64,000 bases of DNA. It comes from an uncultured virus (IMG/VR IMGVR_UViG_3300025012_000071). Taxonomy: Duplodnaviria > Heunggongvirae > Uroviricota > Caudoviricetes. The notes under the pieces were generated by a model. The model ran no database searches, was not told the DNA's origin, and was given only the letters and a program-made list of their open reading frames with translations. Position numbers and translations under genes: made by a program. Positions within the stretch are counted from its first letter, which is position 1, and each line of letters opens with the position of its first letter. This document shows, in pieces, positions 23,301 to 42,873 of this stretch. The stretch is taken from IMG/VR virus record IMGVR_UViG_3300025012_000071. One strand, given 5' to 3'.

Positions 23301-26300
23301 CAGTAAAACTATGGCAGAGGACATTGGACTAAAACCGGAGAAAGCGGACGAGTTAATAATTGAAGGGAATAAGGTTACTGGTAGTGCTGAATCTATTCCA
23401 GGGCAGGCAGGCACATATGATCCCGGCACAATTGGGGCGGCAAGGTTAACCGTACCGGAAAAGCAAGCAACTCTCCCAGGCACTAATGAAAAGGTGCGGT
23501 CATTCCAGAGAACTGCCATTGATGCGCCTGTAACCGATTTAGATACCAAGGCAGGTCTACTGGTTGATATTTACACAGAAGGTCCGGGCGCATATAAATC
23601 CATAACCAATATCGAAACCGAGGCAGCAGCAAGAAAGTTTATCGAGGACATGGGAGAAGGAGAAGCACTTAGGTATGTTTTCGATGAAACTGAGGTATCG
23701 GCATTAAAACCTGCAATGGCAGGACAACTTGCATATGCGCTACAAAAACAGGGAAAGCATTATACATCAGTAGAATTGCTTGAAAGTATGGGCAAGCAAC
23801 TTACTTCTGCCGGTCAAATGGCGCAGGCAGTAAAAATATTTATGAACTTATCTCCCGAAGGTGTACTTATCAAGGCAAACAAAGAAACCAAAAAGGCGTT
23901 TAACGAACTACCGAAACAAACTAAAGATAAGCACGACGATCTGAGCGGCAAACTGCAAGAAGAATTTGACGGTATCGACAAAGAAGCAATTGACCAAGTG
24001 GTTAGCGAGACTCCCGAATTGGGCGGCAAGAAGCAACCGGACAAGAAAGGCAATAAACCCGGCAAACCTACTACCGAGAAGAAAGAGTTTGACCCTGCCG
24101 CCGTATTAGCGCAAAAGGTCGTTCAATGGACTAAACCGATGATGCCTAAAGCAATCACTTCTGAGATGCAAATGGTTAGGACATTGTTCAAAAAGGCGCA
24201 GGAGGTATTACCTAAAGATAAAGTTAAACCCGTTAAGACAAACGCATTAGACGAAATCGCAACCGCACTACAGCAAAGCGACAACTACCGCAAAACTTGG
24301 GAAGATTCAAAGAAGGTTATCCTGGAGCAGAACGGAGAAATACCGCAGGTCATGAAAGACGTTGAAGCATACGTTGAGCATTTCCTTAATGTGCCGTATT
24401 CTGAGAGATCGCTTAGTCGTGTATTAGTCGAAGCAATGAAGGATAAGAGTTTTGACTTAGAGCAGTCTGCATTTGGTCCAATGTCACCGAATTTCCGAGG
24501 AACTAAAGCAGAGAATAACGCCTTTATTCAGTCTATCGTTAAAGATAGTGGGTTGACCGGAAAGAACGCCGAAGTATTGTCCTTAGAATTAGGCAGTAAA
24601 CTTGATAAAGCGTTGAAGAAGAAGCGTGACGATAAGACTTCTGACTTAGCGAAAAGGATTATAGGTATGGCGGTTGACAGTCCGAAAGGTGCCGAGACTA
24701 ACCCCGTCAAAGAAATGTTTAATATTCTGATGCAGAAAGCAAAAGAGTCTATGCCGAAGGTAGAAGGTGCTAAGTCTGCCAAGGATGGCATGTTGCCGAT
24801 ATATAACGCCTTGAATAACCGCAAAATGTTTAATCAGGTATGGTCAGAGGCGAAGAAGGATATTGTTAAGCAGTTAGAAGCGAAGGGATTATCTGTTGAA
24901 GGTGTTAACCTTGACCAAATGTTTGCCGAACTTCTCTATCACCCCTACACTAAGGGACAGTTAAGTAGGGAGGTTACTAAGGGTATCAAGCAGTACGGTA
25001 TTGATGTGAATAACATTGTCCGGCAACACTTTACCGTAGTTGATAAAACAGGTCAGACGTTGGCTGAAAAGTTGACTACTCGCGGTATGTTACCAAAGGA
25101 CGAAGCGGCATTGTTGGCTCAGGACATTCAGGCCAGATTTGCCGAGATAGCGGAAATGAAGAAAGCGCAGATATTGAAGAATATGTTTCGCGAGAAGTCG
25201 TTGACTAAAGAACAGAGAACTATTGACCAGAAGATTGTTGAACTTTCAAATTTGGGCGCATTGTCTAAGGAGCAATACAGACGGTCGGTTGCTGAGAAGA
25301 TGGGGTTGCCGGTGTTGACCGAGGATATTGCTAATAGGTTGGTTGCGTTGGCAGAGCAGGCGCAGTTGGCGACTGGTCGGCGGTCGGAGATATTGAGGGC
25401 GCAGATGTTGAAAATACTAGCGGAACAAAAACCTGTATCGTTTACTAGAAAGTTTGATGCTTTGCGTAGAATTGCAATGCTACTAAACCCTAAAACACTA
25501 TTGGCGCGAAATATTGGCGGCAACGCTATATTGGGAACATTTGAGAATATTAAGGACATTCCAGGAAGTATTGCTGACAGAGCAACAACGGCATACCTTA
25601 AAAAGAAGGGCATTGATGCAAAAAGAACTACTCTTGCACCTTCAGTAGAGGGAATTGCTACACAGGCAAAGGGTATTGTAAAAGGTGCTAAATTAGTTAC
25701 GGAGGACATCAAACTTGGTGTTGATACTTCTCCTACAAGAGGACAGTACGAAATACCAGTCGGAAGAACCTTCGACAATAAGGTGCTTAATTTCTTAGAT
25801 AACGCTACAACGAGAGGTTTGCAATACGGAGATAGAACATTCTTTCAAGGTGCATATGACGACGCATTGCGGCAGCAAATGAAAATTAACAAGACAGATA
25901 AACCAACTCCCGAAATGGAGGATTTTGCATTAGAAGTAGCAAAAGACAGGACATTCCAGAATGATAGTGAAGTGTCTAACGCTATTATCTATTTGCGACA
26001 AGGGTTAAACAAACTTGGAGCAAAAGCAGGGATAGGCAATAAGGAATGGGGATTAGGAAATATCGCTATTCCATTCGCAAAGACACCTGGAAACATTATG
26101 GATAAAGCTATTGATTATAGTCCGTTAGGATTTATTAGTGCAGCAAAGGAAGCATATCGCGGTAGTAAGGGTGAATTTAATCAAAAGAAATTTGTCGATG
26201 CTATAGGCAGAGCAGTAACAGGAACCGGGTTGATTCTACTTGGTTACGATCTTGCCCGAAGTAATGTTATAACAGGGCAGCAAGATAAAAACTCCAACGT

Positions 26301-27216
26301 AGCTAGTTTTAAAAAGAACTTGGGCATGTCTCCTTATTCTTATAATATGAGTGCCGCTATTAGGTTGTTAAGCGGGGAAGATCCGAAACCTAAGAAGGGT
26401 GACGTAATAAGGACATATGATTTTGCCCAACCAATAAGCGTCGCATTGGCGGTTGGTGCTGATATATATTCTGGAATTAAAAACCGTAAACGCGCCTCAA
26501 ACTTGGTTGCCGAATCAATTAAAAGTGGTGGCAATGCACTTTTAAAGCAGTCAGTTTTGCAAGGTTTAACGCGAATGGTTGGCGGTTACGATACTATGCA
26601 GGGCGTACTTGATACTATATTTCAAGCACCATTACAGTTCATTCCTACAGTCAGCGGTCAGATAGCAAAGATAACTGACAAAAATGCCCGCGAAACAAGA
26701 AGTCAAAGCATGTATGAAGAAGTGATAAATAAAGGTAAGGCGAAAATACCTGGACTAAGTTCATCGTTGCCGAAAAAGGTTGATACTCTTGGTAGGGATA
26801 TAGAGTCAATATCAGGTGGAAATACATTCTTTAATTCTTTTATAAATCCAGGACTTACTAAGAAATTCAATCCTTCTGAAGTTGAGCAACGAGTTTTAGA
26901 TGTTTACGAAAAAACTGGCGACGCTTCAATATTGCCAAGGGTTGCCGATTCTTCCTTTAAGGTAAATAGGATTAATAAGAAAAGTGAACCTATTAGCATT
27001 GACCTTACAGGACAGGAAATGTCCGACTATCAAAAAAATATGGGTACTAAGGTGTTTGAAGGATATTCAAAGTTGTCGCCAAAAATGCGACCAGAGATCG
27101 CCGTTAAACGAATGAAAAGCATTTTGGATAGTGCTAATGAATATGCCAAGATACAACTACTAAAAAGCAGGGGTTATGTGGTGGTCAAAAGAAACGGTGG
27201 AGTAGTTGTCAGGTAA
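20380..27216 (+). CDS. giant internal virion/ejection protein with FtsK-gamma domain
   Basis: 2278 aa; C-terminal AMLLNPKT..RN and PFAKTP.N motifs of phage DNA-transfer/large polyvalent proteins; winged helix at 21523-21690. Confidence 0.75.
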   Translation: MSQQKLYEAVRSGRVKLTDLNDDGKQALREYMSTKDKPATPKQSTYSRIDSKVGGILPGGSDFKPSEYGISDKFAKDNPAISRGLATVVSPLKAVFDIPSVERASQAGNEVRFLTENPDKTDTGSSTKNMVADFIGGATGFIGGSPGSIMPSAGGALFGGGAKATGKILPKTTRPIVRTAAEMAGGSVVYDLGNAAANGHSPTVEDLGVVAAQNALLGAATYGLGKGVSRLFKDKTEIPLTKKEVTSPKVKQDIPADINLARNVVKNTTNLGRINRIIDAYPELAAEYPQFRLQQGDKVILPNGKEATVKTNDRMIIQVDVDGKAASVGRKVVNVPEVKTEAVSEVATPEIKQQPVINDVPRVNNRSGADTFDDAVSETVSDNYNKAVELVTQNNSPSISLLQRNLKIGYAEAARHINRMESEGIVSAFDGNGRTVLKQGNKTATDIETAFNDLGNAAQEAGYKKTMDDVAKQGYVSFAKKESADLFRNDPRYEGWKEEQVNGEYRFSPQENVPSITTQIKVNRGSKGVANITLPDADHALLFELDKQMKMLNNEKTYSQELEVLAEQNYNKLKDKFPDPIGTADTYRRSVLNGAKDIEKDGTYAAETFEAVKAKLDAEAKRFDIPVDKRTSKNVGDRKVNAMQYNHPELKPHIQEQAKNIMGDLAASLKAARGGTTVYGENTGGENISFGNKRMTTNTIAKILDEQKVSYADINNALQRIIDDAGQENVALAKRIELLIDEHLTDGYTDIYGNKYPPSKEYVDAKNKAYGTDIKSKEQYKDMSDEDWAELEQLQGEIEGKGDVKQETPELSAEVGNKSTSEVKTIPSYDEFSNKVMDIYNKQEKKAYAEADKRQEKLIAEKENILNGIIDGSISPDEILSKRKELRITRNDNGTYSYSRGSKKYTTTEPVADVETFKRNLASELVEDNIKNIKRKDKYAGVIDAARKNTNKELGLGSDTIYDSHQEMYDKLYGSKTMAEDIGLKPEKADELIIEGNKVTGSAESIPGQAGTYDPGTIGAARLTVPEKQATLPGTNEKVRSFQRTAIDAPVTDLDTKAGLLVDIYTEGPGAYKSITNIETEAAARKFIEDMGEGEALRYVFDETEVSALKPAMAGQLAYALQKQGKHYTSVELLESMGKQLTSAGQMAQAVKIFMNLSPEGVLIKANKETKKAFNELPKQTKDKHDDLSGKLQEEFDGIDKEAIDQVVSETPELGGKKQPDKKGNKPGKPTTEKKEFDPAAVLAQKVVQWTKPMMPKAITSEMQMVRTLFKKAQEVLPKDKVKPVKTNALDEIATALQQSDNYRKTWEDSKKVILEQNGEIPQVMKDVEAYVEHFLNVPYSERSLSRVLVEAMKDKSFDLEQSAFGPMSPNFRGTKAENNAFIQSIVKDSGLTGKNAEVLSLELGSKLDKALKKKRDDKTSDLAKRIIGMAVDSPKGAETNPVKEMFNILMQKAKESMPKVEGAKSAKDGMLPIYNALNNRKMFNQVWSEAKKDIVKQLEAKGLSVEGVNLDQMFAELLYHPYTKGQLSREVTKGIKQYGIDVNNIVRQHFTVVDKTGQTLAEKLTTRGMLPKDEAALLAQDIQARFAEIAEMKKAQILKNMFREKSLTKEQRTIDQKIVELSNLGALSKEQYRRSVAEKMGLPVLTEDIANRLVALAEQAQLATGRRSEILRAQMLKILAEQKPVSFTRKFDALRRIAMLLNPKTLLARNIGGNAILGTFENIKDIPGSIADRATTAYLKKKGIDAKRTTLAPSVEGIATQAKGIVKGAKLVTEDIKLGVDTSPTRGQYEIPVGRTFDNKVLNFLDNATTRGLQYGDRTFFQGAYDDALRQQMKINKTDKPTPEMEDFALEVAKDRTFQNDSEVSNAIIYLRQGLNKLGAKAGIGNKEWGLGNIAIPFAKTPGNIMDKAIDYSPLGFISAAKEAYRGSKGEFNQKKFVDAIGRAVTGTGLILLGYDLARSNVITGQQDKNSNVASFKKNLGMSPYSYNMSAAIRLLSGEDPKPKKGDVIRTYDFAQPISVALAVGADIYSGIKNRKRASNLVAESIKSGGNALLKQSVLQGLTRMVGGYDTMQGVLDTIFQAPLQFIPTVSGQIAKITDKNARETRSQSMYEEVINKGKAKIPGLSSSLPKKVDTLGRDIESISGGNTFFNSFINPGLTKKFNPSEVEQRVLDVYEKTGDASILPRVADSSFKVNRINKKSEPISIDLTGQEMSDYQKNMGTKVFEGYSKLSPKMRPEIAVKRMKSILDSANEYAKIQLLKSRGYVVVKRNGGVVVR

Positions 27217-31446: not shown

Positions 31447-32028
31447 ATGTTAATAGTCATAGATCCCGGTCATGGTGGAAAAGACCCCGGAGCAGTAGGA
31501 AACGGATTGCAAGAGAAGCAACTTAATTGGACGGTTGCAAACTTAGTCAAGGATAAACTCGCTAAGTACGATGTAGAGGTTACTATATCCCAACCATCCT
31601 GTACTAATCCGAACTCTGATAAGAATACCGAGTTAAGCGGTCCGGTCAATGATGCAATACGTTTGGGAGCAGATTATTATTTATCCATCCATACCAACGC
31701 AGGTGGTGGAACTGGTTTTGAGTCATTCATACACAACAACGCGAGCAGGGCAACTGACTTGATACGTAACATTATTCACGACAATACTGCCCCGGTATTT
31801 ACTAAGAACAATATGCCGGACAGGGGCAAGAAACGTGCTAACTTCTATGTGTTGCGGAAGATGCAGGAGAAAGGTATACCTGCCATGTTGATTGAGAACG
31901 GTTTTATCGATACCAAGAAAGATGCTGATAAACTAAAAGATTCGGCATTTCTTAGTAAGTTGGCAAATGAGATCGCTTATGGCATGGTGTTGGCGTTCAA
32001 TCTAAAAACTAAAAGTGGGGTGGCATAA
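31447..32028 (+). CDS. endolysin, N-acetylmuramoyl-L-alanine amidase (Amidase_3)
   Basis: IDPGHGG.DPGA, EK, SIHTNA, LIENGFID. Confidence 0.95.
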   Translation: MLIVIDPGHGGKDPGAVGNGLQEKQLNWTVANLVKDKLAKYDVEVTISQPSCTNPNSDKNTELSGPVNDAIRLGADYYLSIHTNAGGGTGFESFIHNNASRATDLIRNIIHDNTAPVFTKNNMPDRGKKRANFYVLRKMQEKGIPAMLIENGFIDTKKDADKLKDSAFLSKLANEIAYGMVLAFNLKTKSGVA

Positions 32029-32514
32029 ATGGATTATCAAAACATAGCAACGGTAGCACTTGAAGTAGTAGCAACGGCAGCAATACCGTCACTCATATAC
32101 ATTATAAAGAAGGTAGCAAGTGACTTCATTGCACAGCACTTCGATGTTAAGAAAATGCAATTAGAGTTATCTCATGCCGGTATCAACTTCACCTCTGAAA
32201 AGGTATCCGAGATAGTAAATAGCACTATCGAGAACGCAATTAAGGCATTAAATTTGCCTGCTATAGTAAATGTACCAGTAGAGGATAAAGAGTCGCTAAA
32301 ACAGGCTGAAAATGCGCTTACACAGGAGGTTAGTGGTAATACAGAATGGATAGTCGGCGAAGACTTTATCGTTAAGATTAACGGAACTCAGAAGGATTTC
32401 TATACTCCTAAGAGTGTCGGGGAGGATACCTTTAATATATTAGTCGAAAGGGTTTACTTGATTGACGGAGTAGTTAAAACTAACCGTCCGTTTGTGGAAT
32501 ATTTAATGTCTTAG
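32029..32514 (+). CDS. holin-like protein (single N-terminal TM)
   Basis: N-terminal hydrophobic helix, IE.AIK motif, follows endolysin. Confidence 0.5.
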   Translation: MDYQNIATVALEVVATAAIPSLIYIIKKVASDFIAQHFDVKKMQLELSHAGINFTSEKVSEIVNSTIENAIKALNLPAIVNVPVEDKESLKQAENALTQEVSGNTEWIVGEDFIVKINGTQKDFYTPKSVGEDTFNILVERVYLIDGVVKTNRPFVEYLMS

Positions 32515-32550
32515 GTGGTTAAACTAAAATACGAGAATTAATTTTTATAC

Positions 32551-32584
32551 CCCCGGTGACTTCGGTTGCCGGGTTTTTATTTTT
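32551..32584 (+). terminator. terminator ending late operon
   Basis: CCCGGTGAC-TTCG-GTTGCCGGG-TTTTTATTTT. Confidence 0.8.
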
Positions 32585-32656
32585 GGACAAAAAACAAAAC
32601 TACCCTTAGTATAATCTAAAAGGTAGTTTTGTCGTCATGTCCTTCATAGGGACTAC

Positions 32657-32732
32657 TGGCTGTGAAGGTAGGTCTCGAACCTACGACAAGCTGATTAATA
32701 GTCAACCACTCTACCAACTGAGTTACTTCACA
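32657..32732 (-). tRNA. tRNA-Asn with anticodon AUU
   Basis: 76-nt cloverleaf TGTGAAG..CTTCACA-G-CCA; D arm ACTC/GAGT; anticodon loop CT-ATT-AA; T arm GTAGG-TTCGAGA-CCTAC. Confidence 0.9.
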
Positions 32733-32868
32733 ATACGGAGGGACTAACTTCATATTAATCCTAATTTTGAATTTGTTATTGCTGATTCGCCACGAATTCT
32801 AATTAATTCCCTGTCTGCCACAGTTGCTTTTTGGGTAAAAAAAGAACGCTCTCGCGTCCATCTAAAGG

Positions 32869-32925
32869 CTAAATTTTTTCAACGGAATACACTACTACTA
32901 GATTCAATAACAATGCTAATTCCAC
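32869..32925 (-). CDS. 18-aa hydrophobic peptide, type I toxin-like
   Basis: GTG start MELALLLNLVVVYSVEKI*; own promoter 33021-33049, hairpin over RBS, terminator 32838-32859. Confidence 0.45.
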   Translation of the reverse strand: MELALLLNLVVVYSVEKI

Positions 32926-33020
32926 ACGGAGGTATTCACTTCCTTTCGCCTCAGATTATCGGAGTAACCGCCATGTACGCATATCACGCGAAGACAGAGG
33001 CGTAGCGGTTCGATGTGAAT

Positions 33021-33049
33021 ATTATACCACCGAGTTAATTGTGTTGCAA
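33021..33049 (-). promoter_or_regulatory. sigma-A promoter
   Basis: TTGCAA-17-TATAAT with extended TG. Confidence 0.75.
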
Positions 33050-33107
33050 CTGTTTACGGTAGAAGAATACTGTATACAGTTTATGGGTAAATAAAAAACT
33101 CCCTCAG

Positions 33108-33446
33108 TTAGAGAGAGTTTGTGTGTTGTTGGTTGACTACTTCCCAGTCATCGGCAAGCAGATCGGTTATGCTCGGAACCCATGTGTTGTATTTACAGTT
33201 GACATTAAATAGAACGAGACATTTGTTATCAATCGGAACATTGTCGGCAGTATATAGACTAAGCATACTAACGTGCATATTTTTGCCGTTCCAACCTTTC
33301 CTTGATATACAGTCACCTTTTTTCAGAGCATCCAGCGCCTGACCGAAGTTCAGTCCCGTCTTTTGGGTGCTTTCCGTTTCACCATCAGCATCATCATATG
33401 TAGCCTCGAAAATATCAGGTTTGCAGGGGTATTTCTTCGGTAACAC
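33108..33446 (-). CDS. DUF2829 (Tad2-family) protein
   Basis: NFGQAL.ALKKG..ISRKGWNGKNM...WVPSITDLLADDWEVV; own promoter TTGAAT-17-TATAAT at 33482-33510. Confidence 0.85.
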   Translation of the reverse strand: MLPKKYPCKPDIFEATYDDADGETESTQKTGLNFGQALDALKKGDCISRKGWNGKNMHVSMLSLYTADNVPIDNKCLVLFNVNCKYNTWVPSITDLLADDWEVVNQQHTNSL

Positions 33447-33536
33447 TATTTATCCCTCCATAATCCTCTATTCGTCATTCAATTATACTACTAAGCAAAT
33501 AAAAATTCAACCGTTTACGGTATATTTATACCGTTT

Positions 33537-33564
33537 GCAGGAGAAATAATCTCCGGCATAGAAT
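33537..33564 (+). promoter_or_regulatory. sigma-H-type promoter
   Basis: GCAGGAGAA-12-ATAGAAT is close to consensus RNAGGAWWW-11/12-RNNGAAT. Confidence 0.6.
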
Positions 33565-33660
33565 AGTTATAGTATCACCGGATTATCTTACTAGCATAAA
33601 TAATCCCGAAGTATATCTACTAAAGGTCGCCTTCCACGGTCGGCCTCTTTTTTTTACTCA

Positions 33661-33775
33661 AAACAAAACTCCCCACACATACCCTATTTTTAAAGTGCGC
33701 GCCATGGTGTACGTCAAGGTTCGCTGTGCTTACACACCCACACTTTAAAGATAAGATACGTTGGAGAGTTTTGTC
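33661..33775 (-). ncRNA. rod-like structured RNA
   Basis: About 115-nt hairpin with stacked stems and G-U pairs that work on the minus strand. Confidence 0.5.
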
Positions 33776-33960
33776 ACCATCAATGCCGTATACTGCATCT
33801 CTTGGGTGTTTATGAGATTTTTATTCGCTTATTTACTACTCCGGTATGCTAAAACCTCTTAATATCAACCGTCTGTAGTGTCGCTTTAAGGTACGATCAA
33901 GACCTATCATGTCTGACCAATAATGTCCATCAAATAGGGTTCTTTCGTTCCCATAACCGT

Positions 33961-34081
33961 TAAGCGGGCAAGGAATCAAACCTTGCAATTGCCGGGCACT
34001 AGTCACTAGACTCTATGTCCGAATTGCCACGGACTCACTTCCCGGTCTTAGATATAGCGTCACTCTTTGCGCCTCCGCTTA
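33961..34081 (-). ncRNA. tRNA-like RNA with expanded central domain
   Basis: Acceptor TAAGCGG/CCGCTTA, T arm GCAAGG-TTTGATT-CCTTGC, D-like GGCG/CGCT; no CCA. Confidence 0.55.
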
Positions 34082-34141
34082 TTTACCGTCCCACCATGGT
34101 GCGCCTGATTTAGACAGAGGCGTGGTGGGATCTGTTGATGT

Positions 34142-34170
34142 ATTATACCACCCAGCAAAAACAATTTCAA
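34142..34170 (-). promoter_or_regulatory. sigma-A promoter of RNA island
   Basis: TTGAAA-17-TATAAT with extended TG. Confidence 0.75.
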
Positions 34171-34197
34171 CAACTTTTTCCCTAAAACTTACCTGCA

Positions 34198-34225
34198 ATA
34201 TGGACAAATTCTATCCGCATAAACT
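34198..34225 (+). promoter_or_regulatory. sporulation sigma (sigma-E-like) promoter
   Basis: ATA-17-CATAAACT about 30 nt before the FtsK start; no sigma-A -10 on this strand. Confidence 0.5.
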
Positions 34226-34256
34226 TAACGAACAGCATAGCGAACGGAGGTATGTT

Positions 34257-35384
34257 ATGGAGAAAAAAAATAACCTTCTTGCCGATGGCATAGATGCCCT
34301 TAAAATAGCATGGAGACACCGTAAGGGCAACGAAATACCTGCAACCATACTAGACACTATAGACATACTTTATCCCCCAAATAAACCCCGTATATTGCCT
34401 ATACGGAAGGGGATTAAGAAAACTCCTACAGGTTGGCATATGATATTTACTATGCGCCCCGGCACCTCATTTAACGCATTAAAAAGTCAGCAAGACTACT
34501 TTGAGGATGCTACCGGGTTGAATGTGGAAATGATTAAGAAGGGGAGGTTTTTGTACATGGACATAAACACTAACGAGATACCAAGTAAGTTAGAATACGT
34601 TTGGGATTATAGCGGAAAATTAGACTTGCCTATACCTGTCGGAATTAGCAAGCAGGGACTAGAAGTGCTACCGCTTGAAGAATCTCCGCATCTACTTGTT
34701 GCCGGAGTACCGGGGTATGGAAAATCAAACTTTCTGCATGTCCTTATTGCTTCATTGCTGCCAGTAGCACGAATAGGAATTATTGACCTAAAGCGGTTAG
34801 AATTCGCCTATTTGAAGGATTATGCGGCATTAGCAAAGACAGAGGAAGAAGCGTTATTGTTGATGCAGTCTGTCGAGAAAGGCATGGAGCAGCGTATAAG
34901 GACATTAGAAAAGGCAAAGGTAGTTAAAATTCAAGACTACAATAAAACAGCGAAAGAACCATTACCATTTATTGTTGTCGTGATTGACGAACTAGCAGAA
35001 ATATCTTGCAAGGATACAATCAAGTTAGTTGACCGCATAACCAGACTTGCTAGGGCGGTTGGAATATCTGTAATAGCGGCAACACAAAGACCGTCAACAA
35101 AGGTTTTGCCGGGCGACACAAGGGCAATGTTCCAAGCGAGGTTATGCTTTCAAGTTGCCGACGAATTAAATAGTCGCATGGTGCTAGGTGAAAATTGCTC
35201 TATTGCCGCACATTTGCCGGGAATAAAAGGCAGGGCGATATATAAGTTTGGTATGGATACCAAGGAAGTACAGACAATGCACCTGCCAGTCAAACAGGCA
35301 AAAAATCTATTGAAAGGCAGGGATATGGATGTTTTTAACGAGTGGTGCAATGTCTCACAGAAAACACGGCTATTGCCGCGATAA
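34257..35384 (+). CDS. FtsK/SpoIIIE-family ATPase (no gamma domain)
   Basis: PHLLVAGVPGYGKS (Walker A), IDLK, VVVIDELAE (Walker B), ARAVGI...ATQRP. Confidence 0.92.
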   Translation: MEKKNNLLADGIDALKIAWRHRKGNEIPATILDTIDILYPPNKPRILPIRKGIKKTPTGWHMIFTMRPGTSFNALKSQQDYFEDATGLNVEMIKKGRFLYMDINTNEIPSKLEYVWDYSGKLDLPIPVGISKQGLEVLPLEESPHLLVAGVPGYGKSNFLHVLIASLLPVARIGIIDLKRLEFAYLKDYAALAKTEEEALLLMQSVEKGMEQRIRTLEKAKVVKIQDYNKTAKEPLPFIVVVIDELAEISCKDTIKLVDRITRLARAVGISVIAATQRPSTKVLPGDTRAMFQARLCFQVADELNSRMVLGENCSIAAHLPGIKGRAIYKFGMDTKEVQTMHLPVKQAKNLLKGRDMDVFNEWCNVSQKTRLLPR

Positions 35385-35994
35385 CGAAATAGCATGGCGC
35401 GTAGGTAGTCATAAATGTCTTAACGCCGAACAGGTACAGGTATTACTATTCCCATTGACCGCATCTGGTAAAAGAAAATGTCAGCAAAGATTAAAGAGGT
35501 TGACCGATCAGTTAAGGTTACGACGTTTCCGTTATTCGCCAGAAGAACCATACGCATACTTCCAGAAGGAAATTAAACAGATAGAGCATACCGTATTGCT
35601 TAATTGGGCGGTTATCTGGATAGAGCGACAATTGAAGTCATGGGAGGAAATTTACTCCGTAGACTTCAATTATGACATGAAAATACTAATTACAGATTGC
35701 TTTATTGCTATTAAAAATACAATCACGGGTCAGTTTAGGTTTCTGTTTATCGAAATGGACATTCATCATCCGGGTAACGAGTTTGATAAGGTGCGGAAAT
35801 ATAATAAGTTGTACGATAATTTACCAGATCAATGGTGGGTAAAGCATACTAAGCGGTTTCCTGCCGTTTTAATAGTCACTAACGACGAGCGAAAGTTAAA
35901 GGAAATTAACAAAATGATTAAGTCGGAGAATAAAAACGGGTTGGAGTTTAGAAGTTATCTTGTGGGAAATTTACGCCGGGAGGTGCTGGGATGA
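35350..35994 (+). CDS. replication-relaxation (Replic_Relax) protein
   Basis: RD.EI, winged-helix N-terminus with RLKRL, EH...LN, TD, FIEMD, K..KY..LY, FPAVLIVT. Confidence 0.8.
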   Translation: MSHRKHGYCRDNEIAWRVGSHKCLNAEQVQVLLFPLTASGKRKCQQRLKRLTDQLRLRRFRYSPEEPYAYFQKEIKQIEHTVLLNWAVIWIERQLKSWEEIYSVDFNYDMKILITDCFIAIKNTITGQFRFLFIEMDIHHPGNEFDKVRKYNKLYDNLPDQWWVKHTKRFPAVLIVTNDERKLKEINKMIKSENKNGLEFRSYLVGNLRREVLG

Positions 35995-36287
35995 GGTATA
36001 TTGCGGCAATAATCGGGTTACTACTATCTCCAATGGTTGCGTTTGCATTGTCGGAAGGTTTGCGAAATACGATGTCTAAAACTTTTGGCTGGGGTGGTGT
36101 AGGTAACAAGATAGTCATTCTCATGGTAATAGCGGTAGGGAGTTGGGTTGCTGAAATGGTTGCCGGTGCTGTTGGCAAGGGTAACTTTTGTGCCGTGATA
36201 AAAATAGTAGCAACTTTTCTGGCCATAATATTAGTTATCGGGGTTGCCTTAGATTTATTAGATCACGTATCAAGAATATTTGTGTAG
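35991..36287 (+). CDS. SpoIIIAC/AD-like small membrane protein
   Basis: C-terminal IAVG..VAE.V....GK......I.IV.....I..VI....DL...V..IF resembles SpoIIIAC. Confidence 0.55.
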   Translation: MRYIAAIIGLLLSPMVAFALSEGLRNTMSKTFGWGGVGNKIVILMVIAVGSWVAEMVAGAVGKGNFCAVIKIVATFLAIILVIGVALDLLDHVSRIFV

Positions 36288-36295
36288 GTGATGCT

Positions 36296-36517
36296 ATGTT
36301 TACTATTATACAGGTTATAGTTTTTGTCATTGTATGTGTGTGTTTGCCTGAGTTGATGCTGTTGGCGTTGGTTGGTCTAATTGGTTTTATCGTCTGTAAG
36401 GTGACAAATAGGAGAAGTATAGGACAAATGATATTGCTATTAGTTGTGTTCTTAGGACTGGATATTATTGTTAGTAGGGTGCAGGAGATAATTGACTTTG
36501 GGAAGTTCATTAATTAA
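36296..36517 (+). CDS. small polytopic membrane protein
   Basis: 73 aa, largely hydrophobic, AGGTGA RBS. Confidence 0.7.
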   Translation: MFTIIQVIVFVIVCVCLPELMLLALVGLIGFIVCKVTNRRSIGQMILLLVVFLGLDIIVSRVQEIIDFGKFIN

Positions 36518-36519
36518 CG

Positions 36520-36560
36520 AGTTAGTCGGTCGGTTGTTTGGTCGGTTAGTCGGTCAGTCA
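36520..36560. repeat. tandem GTCG/GTTA/GTTG tetramer array
   Basis: GTTAGTCGGTCGGTTGTTTGGTCGGTTAGTCGGTCAGTCA. Confidence 0.7.
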
Positions 36561-36747
36561 ACTTGTCCACGTTTCGCGCTGCTGCCATTAATCCGTCGTT
36601 CCTCCTGATTATATACCGGAATTTTACGCTTGTCCATTTTGCTGTATTTGCTGGGTTTTTAAGGTGTTATCCGTTCTTTAGGTGTGTAGGGGTGCGAATA
36701 GGTTAACGAATGGAGAACGATCAGTATGACGAATAATTTAAAAGGAG

Positions 36748-36954: not shown

Positions 36955-37020
36955 GAAAGTCTGTAACCCGAAAGGGTTATTTTTTTTGAGTAACTTTGTG
37001 CTGGATACGGTAGAAAAGTG

Positions 37021-37068: not shown

Positions 37069-37212
37069 TTGAAGCGCAGAAGTATTTTTATGGATGATGA
37101 AAGACACGGTAAATTAAAGAAGGAGGCATGTAAGCAGAAGTTAAAAGTTTCAGAGTTAATTCGTCGGATTATTGATGAATGGTTGGATAATAGAAAGGAT
37201 GATAACCAATGA
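37069..37212 (+). CDS. ribbon-helix-helix (CopG-like) regulator
   Basis: MKRRSIFMDDERHGKLKKEACKQKLKVSELIRRIIDEWLDNRKDDNQ*; GAGGTGA RBS. Confidence 0.8.
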   Translation: MKRRSIFMDDERHGKLKKEACKQKLKVSELIRRIIDEWLDNRKDDNQ

Positions 37213-37524
37213 ACCCATACGGAACACTTGCTACTGCATGGATTGGTGTTAGTGTCTGCGTTATTGCCGCACCATATTTAACGCATAATGCTAATTGTTT
37301 ATGGGCGTTTATGATACCTGCGCTAATTGGGGTGAAAAGTTAGCAATAAGAAGGAAGGAGGAAAGTTAATGAACATTATTGATGCTATTGTAGAATTAAA
37401 CTCCGAGATTTGCGAGGATAATCCAAAACTATGCGGCGAAGGTATTCAGTTCATGTATTACACAAATGGTTTTGCCGATATAGTAAATTTCCTATGATAT
37501 GAAGTCTATAGCTCCGACAGTGAC

Positions 37525-40500
37525 ATGGAGGAAGATGTTGAGGCGGCAGGTGGCATTAAGCAGTTTCTTATCGTTAAAGTTAGGGAGTATGTTGACATTG
37601 TTAGTAGTGTTGAAGTATTTCAGAATAAGAAGGGAGATTCTAACGAATTCTTCTTTCAACTTGTTCGTAGTTTTCTAGTCATGACACCATGTGTTGTTAG
37701 GGCGAGAAGTGACCATGCCTGTGCTGATTGCGCTATTACAGATAGTTGTGATTGGTATAAATCTATGATTGATATTGCTAGTAAATTAAAGGTGAGGGAG
37801 AAGGACTAATGGAAGTAGGTCAGAGGGTTTATGTGAAAGACCACTACAGCAGCAACAAAGAACCGAATGAATATGAGGTTATGAAGGTTGGAAGGAGTTA
37901 TTTTTACATTGCTATAAATAACACTTCTAGACTATTCAAATGTGAGATTAAATCTCTTAGGTGCATTGATAGTCCTGGATTTAAGATATGCCTGTCAATG
38001 CAGGAGTATCTTGATGAGCAGGAGTTTACTTCCGTTCTAAGATACATAGAGAGGAAGATTGGGTGTCCTTATAAGAACAATATCACTCTTGGTAAGTTGC
38101 GGAGGATTAGGCGCATCATTGACGGAGGGGAGGAAGTAGAGTGAAATACAAAGAACTTATGAAGCACAGTCAGACACTAGAACGCAAAGTTGCCGCATTA
38201 AAGGAAGAAAACAAGTCATTCATTGGGCAGATTGACGAGTTGGTGCGCATTGAACCGATCGACTTAGAGAAAGATTCATTTGAATGGTATTGCCCATATT
38301 GTGCAGACAAAAACATTGAACAGGGGATATTATCTGTTTATGATGAAATTAAGTGTAGTAACTGCTCTATGGTATTTAGAATAACTATTGAAAGGAAGAA
38401 GTAAAGTTAACATGACCTTCGACTACAACAAAACAGAATCGGAACACTGCCTTGGGTGCGGTAGAAAGTTGACCGCTGCGGAGAGGGCAGAGGGGAAATG
38501 CGATAAATGTGGGGAGGAAGTATGAATGGGTGTATACGACCAGGTAATACAGGAACCATGCCCTAAGTGTGGCGAAGCAATGTACTCAGAAGGAGTTTCC
38601 AACGACATAGGTTATTGCTATCCACCGTTTCATTGTGAAAAATGCGGATACTCTGAAAGATGCGGATATGAGGGTATGAATTGTAATAAATGCGACCAAT
38701 ACGAGAAATGTTTTGGTGAATTGGAGGTGTAAAATGAAAACAACACCAATTCGTAACTGCCAGTCGTGCGGCAAACAATTTACTGATGGCGATATAGTGT
38801 ATTATGCACGGTTGGACAACAACATCGTTTGCCCTGAGTGTTCGTATGGGCATAGCATCAGGGAGAAAAGACTTGTTGAGATAGAAAACTATTGCAGTCC
38901 TCCGATTGCTCGCTACAATGCCCTTGTGAAGATTTTAAAAGGTGTCGGTATTACTCCTACTCATGCCGAGGAAAAGTTTTTACTGTGGTTTAGTACGTGG
39001 GATAATGAAACTTCTGCAACCTTGCGTGGGTTACTGGAGAAGTGCTTGGGGGTGGGTGGTAATGGTGAATAGTCAAATTAAATTCTACTCAATACCGAAA
39101 TGGGCGAAGTATATTGCTCAGGATGGCAGATCGGAACATGTGTCTGTCGTGGTTAGTAGTACCTTGAAGGAGGTTAGTCGTTGAGCAATCAACTCCTAAA
39201 TAACATTACTGAGGCAGAGATTGAAGAGCAGGGCAAAGCAATGGTCGATATTTACTGTGAAGATTGCGACTACACTACAGGATACATGGACTATAAGAGT
39301 GCTGTGTTTAAGATAAATATGCAGGGCGGTTACTTTATGTATGACGGTGAGGGTGGGGATGAAAACAGGTGTCCTATGTGTAAGAATGATAGTTTAGTCA
39401 TTACGGATTAGGGGGAGGTTAACCGTTGAGTAAATGCCAAACATGCATACACTATCGTTATTCTGCCGGTGTTGCCCCATCATTAGCCAAAATACTAAAT
39501 AAGAAGTTGCCGTCAAGGGCAACAAATTACTGTGATTATGCTGAAATTAGTTGGCAAAGAAATTCTGCCGAAGTTAAAAAACCGAGAAGCATTAAATGTG
39601 ATTATAGGATGAAAGAAATGTACTGTGATGATTGCGGTAAATCAATAAAGAATAACTCTGATGTGTGGATGATTCTTTCGTCAAAATCTTATATATGCAA
39701 GAAATGCGGTAAGGAGAAGGAGAATAATGAGCAACCTTAAATCCAAAATACATACGTGCCGAGAGAAATTGGCGTATGTAAGAGAAGTATTACAGGACAG
39801 GAAGGATGATCGGTTAGCGGAAATGGTTGGCGAGGTAAGTAACACGTTGAATAGTATGTACCCTGAGATTAACAGGTTCAAGCAACATATTAACCGATTG
39901 ACAAGTAAATTGTAGGGGTGATTATTTGGATATAGATAAAAGATGGCGCAAAAGAAGAAAAATATTAAAAGACAATGACTGGCAGTACGACCGACAAAGC
40001 GAGTCTTATTCTTCTCCTGTCGGAAGTTGTGATTTTGCTTATGATCTAAAGACGTATTCTGATGATAAGTTTAGTGCAGTAATTGAAGATAATAGAATTG
40101 AATAAATTAAACTCTTAACAACTTCCTCCACCACGGCAATTTCTTCTCTGACCGCCAATGCTCGATAAATTCATCGACACGAGAAACACGATTAATAAGA
40201 TGCTCAACTTTTTTGACGAGTTGGGCATCAGAAGGTAGGTATTTATGGGATTAAGAAAAATGACAATGGGTAAATTCTCTTGGAATGAGAGATGTAAAAT
40301 ATGTGGTCAACATATTTTAGAAGGTGAAAAATTTTATGTAGTATATCCTTCACATAATAAAGATGAAACATTAACATGGGGAATTGTTCATGCAAAAGAA
40401 TTAGACTGTATATCTGAAGGATTATCAGAAGAAGAAAAAATGGATAAGTTGCGCGGCATTAAAAAACCAAGGTTCAAAGGTTTCACCGAAGAGCAAAAGG

Positions 40501-42256: not shown

Positions 42257-42658
42257 TTACATATTTCTTACTTTAGTGATTGTTTTTAATAATTCTTCGA
42301 CAATCTCAGGCGGTATTTGTTCGGTGTACGCCTTTTTAGCCAGCAACAGGTAAGGCAATGTTTCCTTATCAAGTAGCATTTGCTTTATTTCGTCGGTTAA
42401 TACCTCGTTAACCTGTGAAATGTCAAAAACAGTACGAGCGTTTTCGGAAAAAAAGTACATAGGTGATACATTTAATGCGGTAGCAAGTCTCTCAATAACT
42501 TTAATGCCAGGACTTTGCCTTTTTCCGCTTTCAATTTCGGCAATGGTGTTAGTTGATATGGCCTTTGGTTCTCTTGCTGTAACTGTTCTTAGTGATAATT
42601 CATCCATACTTAAACCCCTGTTATTCCTGAGATTATACAACTTATATTTAATTTCCAC
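42257..42658 (-). CDS. CI-like XRE repressor
   Basis: LRNNRGLSMDELS...ISTNTIAEIESGKRQSPG...IERLATALNV; divergent from Cro. Confidence 0.85.
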   Translation of the reverse strand: MEIKYKLYNLRNNRGLSMDELSLRTVTAREPKAISTNTIAEIESGKRQSPGIKVIERLATALNVSPMYFFSENARTVFDISQVNEVLTDEIKQMLLDKETLPYLLLAKKAYTEQIPPEIVEELLKTITKVRNM

Positions 42659-42873
42659 CCGATATTCCCCCTTTATTATATGTTTAATTATATTTCCCGT
42701 CCTCAATTCAGTATACAGGTTGTTGTTGGTAGCGACAATTTCACGGGAAAATATACTTAATTCAGTTGACTTTATACTTTTTAAAGTATATAATGGACAT
42801 AGTTGAAAGAACTTATTTTTTTGCATAGTTATACTGTTTGCAGTAACATTTTACTGAAAGGAGGACAAGTAGT

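What the first reader, a model, noticed from the sequence alone, without database searches (positions are those of the whole stretch)
34198..36615. Sporulation-linked DNA-transfer operon: FtsK ATPase, Replic_Relax, SpoIIIAC-like and membrane proteins
Four coupled genes follow a sigma-E-like promoter. The set resembles a minimal coupling-protein plus relaxase plus channel module without a T4SS, and one membrane protein resembles a component of the mother-cell-to-forespore SpoIIIA complex. FtsK-relaxase pairs are known in phages of spore formers but, to my knowledge, lack an assigned function. Inference: it moves phage DNA into the forespore.
Basis: partly seen in the sequence, partly recalled or inferred. 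Interest (0 to 1): 0.8.

Follow-up and report, generated by a model that had tools for sequence, protein, structure and literature searches.

The report
Phage DNA-pump module with SpoIIIAC-like hairpins
An uncultured phage of spore-forming bacteria carries a tightly linked gene set (a DNA-pumping ATPase, a site-specific DNA-cutting protein and two tiny membrane proteins that resemble a sporulation-channel component) whose job is unknown but looks like moving phage DNA across a membrane.

Summary
Four translationally coupled + strand genes lie at 34257-36517: a soluble FtsK/TcpA-like ATPase, a Replic_Relax (MOBC-class, wHTH + PD-(D/E)XK) protein, and two paralogous 2-TM hairpin proteins. The ATPase, the Replic_Relax protein and a hairpin are found together in every related locus I examined, although gene order varies. 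In two lineages the second hairpin is fused to an M23 peptidoglycan hydrolase. No type IV secretion genes were seen in any flank.

The module sits after the endolysin. In relatives it lies before the integrase and repressor, the same place as the known FtsK-Replic_Relax pair of Bacillus phages (Fah, A16R4, GBSV1). The pair itself is therefore already known, with no assigned function.

The SpoIIIAC resemblance fails Pfam's cut-off but holds up at profile level (hhalign 80%, P 1.5e-5; natural 2-TM decoys score far lower). The sigma-E-like motif exists and is conserved in one 75%-identical relative, but it is unproven.

Delivery into the forespore remains untested. The Fah homologue is a delayed gene of vegetative infection, and host restriction to spore formers could not be discriminated.

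My best reading (about 0.4) is a T4SS-independent phage DNA-translocation module whose destination is unknown. Rivals are defence or exclusion, and replication or plasmid-prophage maintenance.

The parts
34175..34267 (+). Upstream control region. It holds an inverted repeat (arms 34175-34194 and 34248-34267) that brackets the sigma-E-like motif and overlaps the RBS and start codon of the ATPase gene.
   Evidence: 20-nt arms, 80% complementary. The stretch 34175-34252 is conserved in L010 and 34116-34251 in L007. In L010 a TnpB-type gene lies between this element and the ATPase gene.
34198..34225 (+). Sigma-E-like promoter motif (ATAT, 16 nt, CATAAACT)
   Evidence: 5 matches in the window against 1.28 expected; the pattern is post hoc; the same motif lies at -60 in L008 with a diverged spacer, was not found in 9 distant loci, and occurs in 0.3% of 1928 background windows. 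The sigma-E consensus is recalled, not taken from a call.
34257..35384 (+). Soluble FtsK/TcpA-like hexameric-type ATPase, 375 aa. It has no membrane anchor and no FtsK gamma-domain match.
   Evidence: best PDB chain 6o1z 'DNA translocase coupling protein' 4.8e-22, above FtsK 2iuu 3e-17; the Walker A G155/K156 and the D244/E245 pair are invariant in 8 relatives; no N-terminal TM.
35329..35994 (+). Replic_Relax protein (MOBC class): an N-terminal winged-helix part and a C-terminal PD-(D/E)XK nuclease-like domain. The true start is possibly 35350.
   Evidence: PF13814. D123, E142, D144 and K154 are invariant in 15 sequences. AF2 model pLDDT 77, pTM 0.71; fold matches include FokI, MunI, Shedu, Can2, PaqCI and HamA.
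35991..36287 (+). Hairpin 1: 98 aa, a signal-peptide-like N-terminus, a TFGxGG motif and 2 TM. Distantly SpoIIIAC/AD-like.
   Evidence: (family A2).
36296..36517 (+). Hairpin 2: 73 aa, 2 TM, a paralogue of hairpin 1. In L092, L094 and L112 its counterpart is fused to an M23 peptidase.
   Evidence: 25.5 bits to the hairpin-1 family HMM. (M23 fusions).
36521..36558 (.). Three 12-nt-period direct repeats with a GTCGGTC core directly after the operon. Candidate cis site (binding or nick site), unproven.
   Evidence: TCGGTC occurs within 200 nt downstream of the module in 5 of 9 loci, against 0.02-0.07 expected per locus. The motif was chosen post hoc.
36608..36636 (-). Sigma-70-like promoter (TGGACA, 17 nt, TATAAT) that faces back into the operon.
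   Evidence: 11 of 12 positions. Both hexamer blocks are conserved in L015, L010 and L008.
37069..37212 (+). Small ribbon-helix-helix protein, ParG-like. It lies after a terminator-like hairpin, so membership of the module is uncertain.
   Evidence: ParG 5.8e-4 and RHH_1 1e-3, both just under their cut-offs. (terminator-like site 36963-36980). Novomoskovsk has the same order: FtsK, Replic_Relax, membrane protein, ParG-like.

Best explanation
The locus is a phage-borne DNA-translocation module that works without a type IV secretion system.

Inferred mechanism: the Replic_Relax protein (winged helix plus PD-(D/E)XK nuclease, the MOBC relaxase class) recognises, and possibly nicks, a site on the phage genome. 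A candidate site is the GTCGGTC repeat array right behind the operon. The protein then hands the DNA to a soluble FtsK/TcpA-like ATPase. Two paralogous SpoIIIAC/AD-type membrane hairpins would supply the membrane part. In some lineages the second hairpin carries an M23 peptidoglycan hydrolase that would open the wall. DNA would then be moved across a membrane or septum.

Shown here: the domain identities; the strict co-occurrence of ATPase, Replic_Relax and hairpin; the M23 fusions; the position at the lysis-lysogeny junction; and the absence of T4SS genes in the flanks examined.

Inferred only: that the four proteins act as one machine, that DNA is the substrate, that the repeats are the site, and where the DNA goes. 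Candidate destinations are the forespore, a neighbouring cell, or a daughter cell at division. I put roughly 0.15 on the forespore within the overall 0.4.
For: - Domains: FtsK_SpoIIIE 3.5e-20 and Replic_Relax 2.7e-8.
- The ATPase is closest to the solved 'DNA translocase coupling protein' 6o1z, 81.8 bits, above FtsK at 66 bits. Review PMC12857230 (passages read) names the TcpA structure of pCW3 (Traore 2023). It describes MOBC relaxases as PD-(D/E)XK relatives and says coupling-protein and relaxase genes usually lie side by side.
- PMC5357655 (passages read) equates PF13814 with MOBC and describes FtsK-like TcpA plus non-canonical relaxase modules in mobilizable elements.
- The Replic_Relax model has a restriction-endonuclease-like fold and invariant D, E, D and K residues.
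- The triad is conserved in all related loci, with permuted order in L019 and L111.
- Hairpin 2 is fused to an intact-looking M23 peptidase in L092, L094 and L112.
- The hairpins match SpoIIIAC/AD at profile level. SpoIIIAD is part of a membrane secretion complex (PMC2703783, passages read).
- The phage has a separate replication module: DnaD-like, DnaC-like, RecT and SbcC-like genes.
- A conserved repeat and promoter region lies directly downstream.
Against: - There are no expression, localisation or binding data.
- The ATPase has no membrane anchor, and the hairpins would expose only short basic loops to the cytoplasm (my reading and of the M23 fusion topology). How the motor docks is therefore unexplained.
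- The ATPase has no gamma domain for sequence-directed pumping (no such Pfam hit at E<=0.1).
- The Bacillus phage versions (A16R4, GBSV1, Fah) have no hairpin of this family. They carry a different 2-TM protein next to the ATPase gene, and Novomoskovsk's showed no similarity by hhalign. The membrane partner is therefore not universally homologous.
- The GTCGGTC site is post hoc and is missing in 4 of 9 loci.
- A PD-(D/E)XK nuclease, an ATPase and membrane proteins at a prophage end are equally typical of defence systems.
Confidence: 0.4

Rival explanations
1. One reading: the module is switched on in the sporulating mother cell by sigma-E and pumps phage DNA through the sporulation septum into the forespore, so that the phage rides in the spore.
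For: - The sigma-E-like motif at 34198-34225 is conserved with a diverged spacer in L008.
- The hairpins resemble SpoIIIAC/AD, a family otherwise seen only in the spoIIIA operon matches of these genomes.
- The M23 fusion recalls SpoIIQ, which is among the M23 matches at 1e-12, though 28th in the list.
- All 8 genomes with the module have spoIIIAC/AD.
- The A16R4-type Replic_Relax is found in 26 phage records: 23 from Bacillus, Geobacillus or Cytobacillus hosts. The other 3 carry other host labels but are 69-99.5% identical to Bacillus phage proteins.
- Of 5 FtsK-positive phage records sampled, only Fah had PF13814. Mycobacterium LittleE, Ralstonia YO079_2, Listeria LIS04 and one faecal contig had none.
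- Genome papers voice the same speculation.
Against: - The Fah homologue is a delayed gene of vegetative infection (review PMC4113786).
- The motif is loose, post hoc and absent upstream of 9 distant module loci. In L010 an insertion separates it from the operon.
- Spo0A-box-like heptamers are not enriched: 6 against 6.84 expected.
- The spore-former background in the sampled phylum is 52 of 61, so 8 of 8 says little.
- The host of this phage is unknown.
- The ATPase is closer to a conjugative coupling protein than to FtsK/SpoIIIE.
- SpoIIIE and SpoIIIA are functionally separate (established knowledge).
Confidence: 0.15
2. Prophage-encoded defence or superinfection exclusion: a membrane-associated ATPase-nuclease system that detects or expels incoming foreign DNA.
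For: - The module sits at the lysis-integrase junction, where accessory genes sit in relatives.
- Its neighbours are a Tad2-like anti-defence gene in the window and an Abi_2 gene in L108.
- The ATPase domain matches the defence proteins SspH (1.1e-26) and mad8 (5.4e-21) in PADLOC.
- Fold matches of the nuclease include Shedu, Can2, Cap4, HamA and LmuA.
Against: - Only the ATPase domain matches PADLOC; the other three proteins match nothing, so no known system is recognised.
- The FtsK-Replic_Relax-membrane-protein set also occurs in Novomoskovsk. Its authors suggest that phage has lost the ability to form a plasmid prophage.
- The Fah gene is expressed during lytic growth.
- PD-(D/E)XK folds and FtsK-like domains are generic.
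Confidence: 0.2
3. Replication or plasmid-prophage maintenance: the Replic_Relax protein nicks an origin to start replication. The ATPase and the RHH protein resolve or segregate copies, as some database annotations and the Novomoskovsk and Izhevsk papers suggest.
For: - PHROG labels 'replication initiation by nicking' (1.2e-8) and 'replication initiation protein'.
- RefSeq names the A16R4-type protein 'replication initiation protein'.
- PMC9658697 and PMC7685451 (passages read) group Replic_Relax, FtsK, ParG-like and ParM-like genes as plasmid functions.
- A ParG-like RHH gene lies nearby.
- No integrase was found among 51 ORFs of 100 aa or more, although a CI-like repressor is present. An extrachromosomal prophage is therefore possible.
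Against: - The phage has its own DnaD-like and DnaC-like replication genes.
- Related modules sit in prophages with serine recombinases.
- Membrane hairpins and an extracellular M23 hydrolase have no obvious role in replication.
- The family labels are annotation, not tests.
Confidence: 0.15

Closest known systems
FtsK/SpoIIIE-like plus Replic_Relax pair of temperate Bacillaceae phages (Fah of the Wbetavirus genus, vB_BanS-A16R4, Geobacillus GBSV1)
   Same: The gene order is the same: endolysin, small genes, FtsK-like ATPase, a Replic_Relax protein of about 200-225 aa, then the integrase and repressor region. A small 2-TM protein lies next to the ATPase gene. The function is unassigned in the papers read.
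   Different: The ATPase is only 24-27% identical. The window's Replic_Relax gives no tblastn match in 50,697 phage records. The membrane partner belongs to a different family: none of these phages hit the hairpin HMM. The window shows no integrase.
Andromedavirus cluster (Bacillus pumilus phage Novomoskovsk): FtsK/SpoIIIE, Replic_Relax, TrbC/VirB2-like and ParG-like genes
   Same: The four kinds of genes occur in the same order (PMC9658697). The membrane protein has a signal-anchor-like N-terminus plus 2 TM.
   Different: There, Replic_Relax is a 91-aa remnant (0.06). The membrane protein shows no similarity to the hairpin family by hhalign; it leans weakly to T4SS_pilin (0.015), not to SpoIIIAC. 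The module lies among early genes, not after the endolysin.
TcpA-type coupling protein plus non-canonical relaxase modules of Bacillota ICEs and IMEs (pCW3, Tn916/ICEBs1 family, streptococcal IMEs)
   Same: An FtsK-like ATPase gene lies directly upstream of a non-HUH relaxase-class gene. The best solved relative of the ATPase is the chain titled 'DNA translocase coupling protein'. PF13814 is counted as the MOBC relaxase class. RHH accessory proteins are usual in such modules.
   Different: The ATPase has no N-terminal membrane domain. No VirB4/TcpF or other mating-pore genes were seen in any flank. The carrier is a tailed phage. Relaxase activity is untested.
SpoIIIAC/SpoIIIAD of the SpoIIIA-SpoIIQ complex
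   Same: The proteins are 2-TM hairpins of about 65 residues, encoded as adjacent paralogues. Profile similarity covers the whole SpoIIIAC domain. An M23-family partner occurs in some lineages, as SpoIIQ does in sporulation.
   Different: Pfam's cut-off is not reached. Many members have a signal peptide and a TFGxGG motif that the SpoIIIAC sequences I aligned lack. The partners are an FtsK-like ATPase and a nuclease, not the SpoIIIAA-AH set. The genes lie in phages and prophages, while each host keeps its own spoIIIA operon elsewhere.
Streptomyces TraB/clt double-stranded DNA conjugation (recalled; only a reference-list entry seen)
   Same: It is a T4SS-independent transfer that relies on one FtsK-like ATPase and a short repeat array as the cis site. 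It is an analogy for how a minimal module could work.
   Different: TraB is membrane-anchored and recognises its repeats itself (recalled). Here a separate nuclease-type protein and separate hairpins are present. No relatedness beyond the ATPase domain was tested, apart from a weak NCBIfam plasmid_TraB domain hit (6.4e-16, far under its cut-off).

Membership tests
FtsK/SpoIIIE family (PF01580) | ATPase motor domain with Walker A and B motifs | tested here: met
   72.8 bits against a cut-off of 24. G155/K156 and D244/E245 are invariant in 8 relatives.
FtsK/SpoIIIE family (PF01580) | N-terminal multi-pass membrane anchor | tested here: not met
   No hydrophobic segment in residues 1-159. The only segment above threshold is 160-178, inside the ATPase core.
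FtsK/SpoIIIE family (PF01580) | C-terminal gamma (winged-helix) domain that reads polar DNA motifs | tested here: not met
   No such Pfam family among hits at E<=0.1. The FtsK matches in PDB stop at query residue 313.
TcpA-type type IV coupling protein | Motor domain closest to TcpA | tested here: met
   6o1z/6o1w/6o1x 'DNA translocase coupling protein', 81.8 bits, is the best of 10 PDB matches. That this chain is pCW3 TcpA rests on review PMC12857230 and on recall.
TcpA-type type IV coupling protein | N-terminal transmembrane domain and an accompanying mating-pore (VirB4/TcpF-type) gene set | tested here: not met
   No N-terminal TM. No T4SS family in 51 window ORFs (PHROGs) or in 94 flanking ORFs of 8 related loci (Pfam).
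Replic_Relax / MOBC relaxases (PF13814) | Match to the family model above its cut-off | tested here: met
   34.6 bits against a cut-off of 25.3. All 14 homologues carry PF13814 in precomputed annotation.
Replic_Relax / MOBC relaxases (PF13814) | PD-(D/E)XK restriction-endonuclease-like catalytic core | tested here: met
   Fold matches to FokI, MunI, Shedu, PaqCI and HamA (E 8e-4 to 0.1, probabilities mostly 0.8-0.99). D123, E142, D144 and K154 are invariant. That these are the catalytic residues is inferred.
Replic_Relax / MOBC relaxases (PF13814) | Site-specific nicking at an oriT and transfer through a mating pore | not testable with these tools
   Only a candidate repeat array at 36521-36558 was found.
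SpoIIIAC/AD family (PF06686) | Match to the family model above its cut-off (24 bits) | tested here: not met
   The window protein has no hit at E<=10. Best members: P0022 at 21.8 bits and the L019 hairpin at 17.6 bits. 2 of 29 members hit at E<=1.
SpoIIIAC/AD family (PF06686) | Profile-level similarity over the whole hairpin, above natural 2-TM decoys | tested here: met
   hhalign gives 36.5%, P 3.7e-4 for the 29-sequence profile, and 79.7%, P 1.5e-5 over 60 columns for 13 context-verified hairpins. Controls: reversed alignment 10.7; 60 column shuffles reached at most 16.3. By HMM, the top 30 of 139 pooled ORFs are all SpoIIIAC/AD, best 30.2 bits against the best decoy at 10.1, AUC 0.94. The reciprocal search is weaker: best member 17.4 bits, window 10.3, best decoy 11.1.
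SpoIIIAC/AD family (PF06686) | Location in a spoIIIA operon | tested here: not met
   The gene lies in a phage module. The hosts' own spoIIIAC/AD genes lie on other contigs.
TrbC/VirB2 pilins (PF04956) | Match to the family model | tested here: not met
   PF04956 is not among the 25 families listed for the 29 members at E<=1. There is no TrbC match in G002, which carries the module.

The most novel reading that the evidence does not exclude
Phages of endospore formers carry a self-contained double-stranded-DNA translocon. It is built from a soluble FtsK/TcpA-like motor, a PD-(D/E)XK site-recognition protein and SpoIIIAC/AD-type membrane hairpins, with an M23 wall hydrolase in some lineages. 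It actively pumps the phage genome across the sporulation septum into the forespore. If so, SpoIIIAC/AD-type hairpins would be a general membrane platform for translocation ATPases, older than or borrowed from the sporulation 'feeding tube'.
Probability: 0.13. Interest if true: 0.85.

Novelty: new variant of a known kind. Interest (0 to 1): 0.6.

Why it matters
The FtsK/SpoIIIE-like genes of Bacillus phages have been remarked on in genome papers for years without a function.

This work shows that the ATPase is one part of a fixed three- to four-part module: a TcpA-like motor, a MOBC-class nuclease and paired membrane hairpins, sometimes with a wall hydrolase. It also links the hairpins to SpoIIIAC/AD. 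That turns a vague annotation into a concrete machine that can be tested by deletion in culturable phages.

If the module moves DNA, it would be a second T4SS-free DNA-transfer device besides the actinomycete TraB system. It could explain how phages get into spores, spread between cells or stay in lysogens.

Full-text searches for Replic_Relax with FtsK (3 papers), for SpoIIIAC with prophage (3 papers seen only as a listing, none about phage homologues by title or abstract start), and for phage, entrapment, spore and FtsK (1 unrelated paper) found no description of this module. Subscription journals are not covered by these searches.

Tried and rejected
- Nucleotide search of the locus against 50,697 phage records: no match.
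- tblastn of the Replic_Relax protein against the same records: no match.
- Rfam on the whole window and a permissive scan of 32400-34400: only the tRNA reached threshold. A weak abiF-like hit (27.2 bits against a gathering score of 37) was discarded.
- Hairpin profile against PDB sequences: nothing at E<=10.
- Hairpin profile against the Novomoskovsk TrbC/VirB2-like protein: no similarity.
- TrbC search in 61 genomes: only 4 matches, none in the module genome G002. The pilin idea was dropped for this family.
A 10-sequence subset worked.
- Profile search of the 5.8-billion-protein set with the hairpin alignment: 10 unnamed proteins and no new information.
- PADLOC: no system recognised.
- Spo0A-box-like heptamer count: at chance level.
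- Complex prediction of the ATPase with the Replic_Relax protein: 'no answer' (score 0.31, mark 0.32). This is not used as evidence either way.
- ESM Atlas: a SpoIIIAC-named cluster at rank 4 with score 0.77, which the tool rates as a lead only.
- Spore-former restriction test: 8 of 8 module genomes have spoIIIAC/AD against a background of 52 of 61, which is not informative. The phylum of G003 turned out to be the same as that of G002, so no contrast group of non-sporulating Bacillota was searched.
- The host of the window phage could not be named. The single genome-contig scan gave two unnamed Bacillota MAGs and a Candidatus Desulfosporosinus genome at 30-37% identity.
- A 24-codon minus-strand ORF over the repeat array (my reading) is not conserved in L008 and was dropped as a gene.

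Full report
**What the window is.** The window is a tailed-phage genome from a metagenome. The nearest held record is a viral contig that shares 94% of sampled words. PHROG matches give a terminase, portal, head genes, a tail region, an endolysin (31447-32028), a CI-like repressor (42257-42826, minus strand) and a replication and recombination block: SbcC-like, RecT, DnaD-like and DnaC-like genes. No integrase was seen among the 51 ORFs of 100 aa or more that I scanned. The locus has no nucleotide match in 50,697 deposited phage records.

**The observation.**
- Four + strand genes run from 34257 to 36517 and are translationally coupled.
- Gene 1 is a 375-aa FtsK_SpoIIIE-domain ATPase (3.5e-20). 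It has no N-terminal membrane segment.
- Gene 2 is a Replic_Relax protein (PF13814, 34.6 bits against a cut-off of 25.3).
- Genes 3 and 4 are 98-aa and 73-aa membrane proteins. The second starts at 36296, not at the longer ORF start.
- The finding's coordinates are therefore right. Its end at 36615 also takes in a repeat array and part of a promoter-like site downstream.

**The ATPase.** Among solved structures the best match is 6o1z/6o1w/6o1x, 'DNA translocase coupling protein' (4.8e-22, 81.8 bits). It ranks ahead of FtsK (66 bits) and of the type VII secretion ATPases. Review PMC12857230 (passages read) describes the TcpA structure of plasmid pCW3 as more FtsK-like than VirD4-like. It notes that coupling-protein and relaxase genes usually lie side by side. 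Unlike TcpA and FtsK, this protein has no membrane domain, and no gamma domain was detected.

**The Replic_Relax protein.**
- The family around the window protein is small: 14 homologues at 47-94% identity, all from metagenomes.
- D123, E142, D144 and K154 are invariant.
- An AlphaFold2 model (pLDDT 77, pTM 0.71) matches restriction-endonuclease-fold proteins (FokI, MunI, Shedu, Can2, PaqCI, HamA) at modest E-values (8e-4 to 0.1). An N-terminal helical part resembles winged-helix repressors (BlaI; PagR at 0.092).
- PF13814 is treated as the MOBC relaxase class in PMC5357655. MOBC relaxases such as TraX of pAD1 are PD-(D/E)XK relatives (PMC12857230).
- 'Relaxase' is thus a fair family label, but nicking activity is untested here.

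**The hairpins.**
- An exhaustive HMMER search found 25 representatives of hairpin 1.
- The alignment shows optional signal peptides, a TFGxGG motif and two hydrophobic helices.
- Hairpin 2 scores 25.5 bits against the hairpin-1 family model, so the two are paralogues.

**The SpoIIIAC test.**
- Pfam level: the window protein has no PF06686 hit even at E<=10. 2 of 29 family members hit at E<=1. One hits at 2e-4 with 21.8 bits, under the cut-off of 24. The L019 hairpin gives 17.6 bits.
- Reference set: I collected SpoIIIAC and SpoIIIAD from 30 spoIIIA loci.
- hhalign of the 29-sequence family against SpoIIIAC gave 36.5% probability, P 3.7e-4, over 59 columns. The reversed alignment gave a score of 10.7. 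Sixty column shuffles gave a mean of 9.8 and a maximum of 16.3, against the observed 24.5.
- Shuffles destroy helices, so I also built a pool of 139 natural small ORFs with two or more hydrophobic segments. It holds 62 SpoIIIAC/AD; the other 77 come from ATP-synthase-c, TrbC, spoIIIA and Novomoskovsk loci. The family HMM put SpoIIIAC/AD in all 25 top places (12.9-25.6 bits). The best other ORF scored 7.5 bits and the best ORF from an ATP-synthase-c locus 6.2 bits.
- To guard against contamination of the family by true SpoIIIAC relatives, I rebuilt the model from 13 hairpins, all of which sit next to an FtsK-like gene and a Replic_Relax gene. The result grew stronger: the top 30 are all SpoIIIAC/AD, best 30.2 bits against the best decoy at 10.1, AUC 0.94, and hhalign gives 79.7%, P 1.5e-5.
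- The reciprocal search is weaker. With the SpoIIIAC model the best family member scores 17.4 bits, the window protein 10.3 and a decoy 11.1.
- The ESM Atlas gave a SpoIIIAC-named cluster at 0.77, which counts only as a lead.
- Conclusion: there is a genuine but distant similarity to SpoIIIAC/AD. It falls short of family membership by Pfam's own rule.

**Conservation of the module.**
- Close relatives: L007/L015, L008 and L010 at 71-91% Replic_Relax identity.
- More distant viral contigs: L092 and L094.
- Genomic relatives: three loci from the genome collection (two Bacillota MAGs and Candidatus Desulfosporosinus nitrosoreducens, 30-37% identity), plus five further loci found with the Replic_Relax profile in 6 of 301 genomes of that phylum.
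- All carry the ATPase, Replic_Relax and at least one hairpin.
- The order changes: the hairpins lie between the ATPase and Replic_Relax genes in L019 and upstream of the ATPase gene in L111.
- L007 and L010 have an extra 153-aa gene. L008 lacks hairpin 2.
- In L092, L094 and L112 the hairpin-2-type N-terminus is fused to a Peptidase_M23 domain (Pfam 2.8e-32 and 1.5e-31; PDB M23 matches up to 9e-23).
- Flanks show an endolysin upstream (window, L019, L109). Downstream lie a serine recombinase with a repressor or ImmA-like protease (L020, L111), or chromosomal genes. No T4SS family was seen.

**Relation to known phages.**
- The ATPase finds 386 phage records, all under 60% identity: 266 Bacillus, 52 Mycobacterium, 8 Geobacillus, 8 Listeria, 6 Staphylococcus, 5 Ralstonia and others.
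- In B. anthracis phages A16R4 and Fah, and in Geobacillus GBSV1, the ATPase gene follows the lysis cassette. It is itself followed by a Replic_Relax protein (5.2e-11, 60 bits and 3.3e-8 respectively) and then by the integrase region.
- These phages have no hairpin of the window's family. They have a different 2-TM protein beside the ATPase gene, and it shares an N-terminal motif with the 'TrbC/VirB2' protein of Novomoskovsk.
- Novomoskovsk has FtsK, Replic_Relax, that membrane protein and a ParG-like gene in a row. Its authors read them as remnants of plasmid functions (PMC9658697).
- The A16R4-type Replic_Relax occurs in 26 phage records, 23 from Bacillus, Geobacillus or Cytobacillus. The other 3 are labelled Staphylococcus or Stenotrophomonas but are 69-99.5% identical to Bacillus phage proteins.
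- Of five FtsK-positive records sampled, only Fah has PF13814.
- Genome papers call the role of the phage FtsK homologue undetermined and speculate about sporulation (PMC3853048 and PMC4113786, passages read). The same review lists the Fah FtsK gene in the 'delayed' class of vegetative infection.

**Regulatory and cis elements.**
- The sigma-E-like motif (ATAT, 16 nt, CATAAACT) is at 34198-34225. My pattern was fitted to it, so the count of 5 against 1.28 expected carries little weight.
- More telling, L008 keeps both halves at the same distance from the start codon while the spacer differs. The strict pattern occurs in only 0.3% of 1928 background windows.
- It was not found upstream of the module in nine more distant loci. 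In L010 a TnpB-type insertion separates the conserved element from the operon.
- An inverted repeat (34175-34194 and 34248-34267) could pair the RBS with upstream sequence.
- Downstream of hairpin 2 lie three 12-nt-period repeats with a GTCGGTC core (36521-36558).
- The hexamer TCGGTC, rare in these loci, occurs within 200 nt after the module in 5 of 9 loci, against 0.02-0.07 expected per locus. The 5 include the distant L021, L092 and L094. The motif was picked after seeing it.
- A sigma-70-like promoter on the minus strand (36636 to 36608, 11 of 12 positions) faces into the operon. It is conserved in L015, L010 and L008.
- Spo0A-box-like heptamers are at chance level.

**Interpretation.** The parts list is a TcpA/FtsK-like motor, a MOBC-class site-specific nuclease, paired membrane hairpins, an occasional wall hydrolase, an RHH protein nearby and a repeat array. 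That is what one expects of a DNA-processing and translocation device. The lack of any mating-pore genes, and the phage's own replication genes, argue for a self-contained accessory function. I commit to DNA translocation across a membrane or septum at about 0.4. Defence or exclusion (0.2) and replication or plasmid-prophage maintenance (0.15) remain serious rivals. How a soluble motor would dock onto hairpins with very short cytoplasmic loops is unexplained.

**Limits.**
- The host is unknown.
- All module-bearing genomes I found lie in one largely spore-forming phylum sample (52 of 61 with spoIIIAC/AD). The host-restriction test was therefore uninformative (8 of 8).
- No non-sporulating Bacillota were searched.
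- Supplements of the cited papers were not opened.
- The sigma-E, Spo0A-box and M23 motif consensuses, and the TraB/clt analogy, are recalled rather than taken from a call.

Noticed in passing
window 33655-34135, mainly minus strand: A 481-nt non-coding stretch lies between the Tad2-like gene and the operon. It folds better than shuffles on the minus strand (z -3.5, 0 of 100 shuffles; plus strand z -2.3). A strong sigma-70-like minus-strand promoter at 34170 to 34142 (11 of 12 positions, with TG) sits just upstream of it. No Rfam family matches (weak abiF-like hit at 34089-34129, 27.2 bits against a gathering score of 37). The segment 33656-34115 has no blastn match in relative L007. It may be a phage non-coding RNA.
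   Followed up: partly
window 33108-33446 (-): A Tad2-like (Thoeris anti-defence 2) domain protein (2.8e-20) is encoded divergently, just upstream of the module.
   Followed up: no
window 32657-32732 (-): ARAGORN calls a tRNA-Asn with the unusual anticodon ATT (Rfam tRNA 62.2 bits). In relative L007 the tRNA lies in a different position relative to its neighbours.
   Followed up: no
L010 2668-3798 (-): A 376-aa TnpB-like ORF (IS200/IS605-type by its sequence features; not scanned against a family library) is inserted between the conserved upstream element and the ATPase gene in this relative.
   Followed up: no
window 20380-27216 (+): A giant 2278-aa ORF lies in the tail region. Its residues 367-448 match a PHROG labelled FtsK/SpoIIIE-like (phrog_13700, 3.5e-15). 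This is probably a shared small domain rather than an ATPase.
   Followed up: no
window 37500-40100 (+): A run of small ORFs downstream of the module has paired CxxC motifs, so they look like zinc ribbons. This is read by eye from the translations. Only three of these ORFs were scanned, against PHROGs only: one matches a function-unknown family (phrog_3032, 2.6e-13) and two match nothing.
   Followed up: no
window 6245-6859 and 9723-10715 (+): Two HNH or endonuclease-VII-type homing-endonuclease-like genes sit inside the head-gene block (4.8e-29 and 3.4e-19).
   Followed up: no
window 36514-36588 (-): A 24-codon ORF with a good RBS lies behind the conserved minus-strand promoter and reads across the GTCGGTC repeats. 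The peptide is not conserved in L008, so the DNA or RNA is more likely what is conserved. An antisense RNA over the 3' end of the operon is possible.
   Followed up: partly
L017 3123-3449, L018 2951-3385, L066 43953-44366: The Bacillus and Geobacillus phage modules share their own 2-TM protein family, with a conserved N-terminal (I/V)IPFR(D/E)F motif. It lies next to the FtsK-like gene and is annotated TrbC/VirB2 in Novomoskovsk. Pfam gives only a weak T4SS_pilin hit (0.015).
   Followed up: partly
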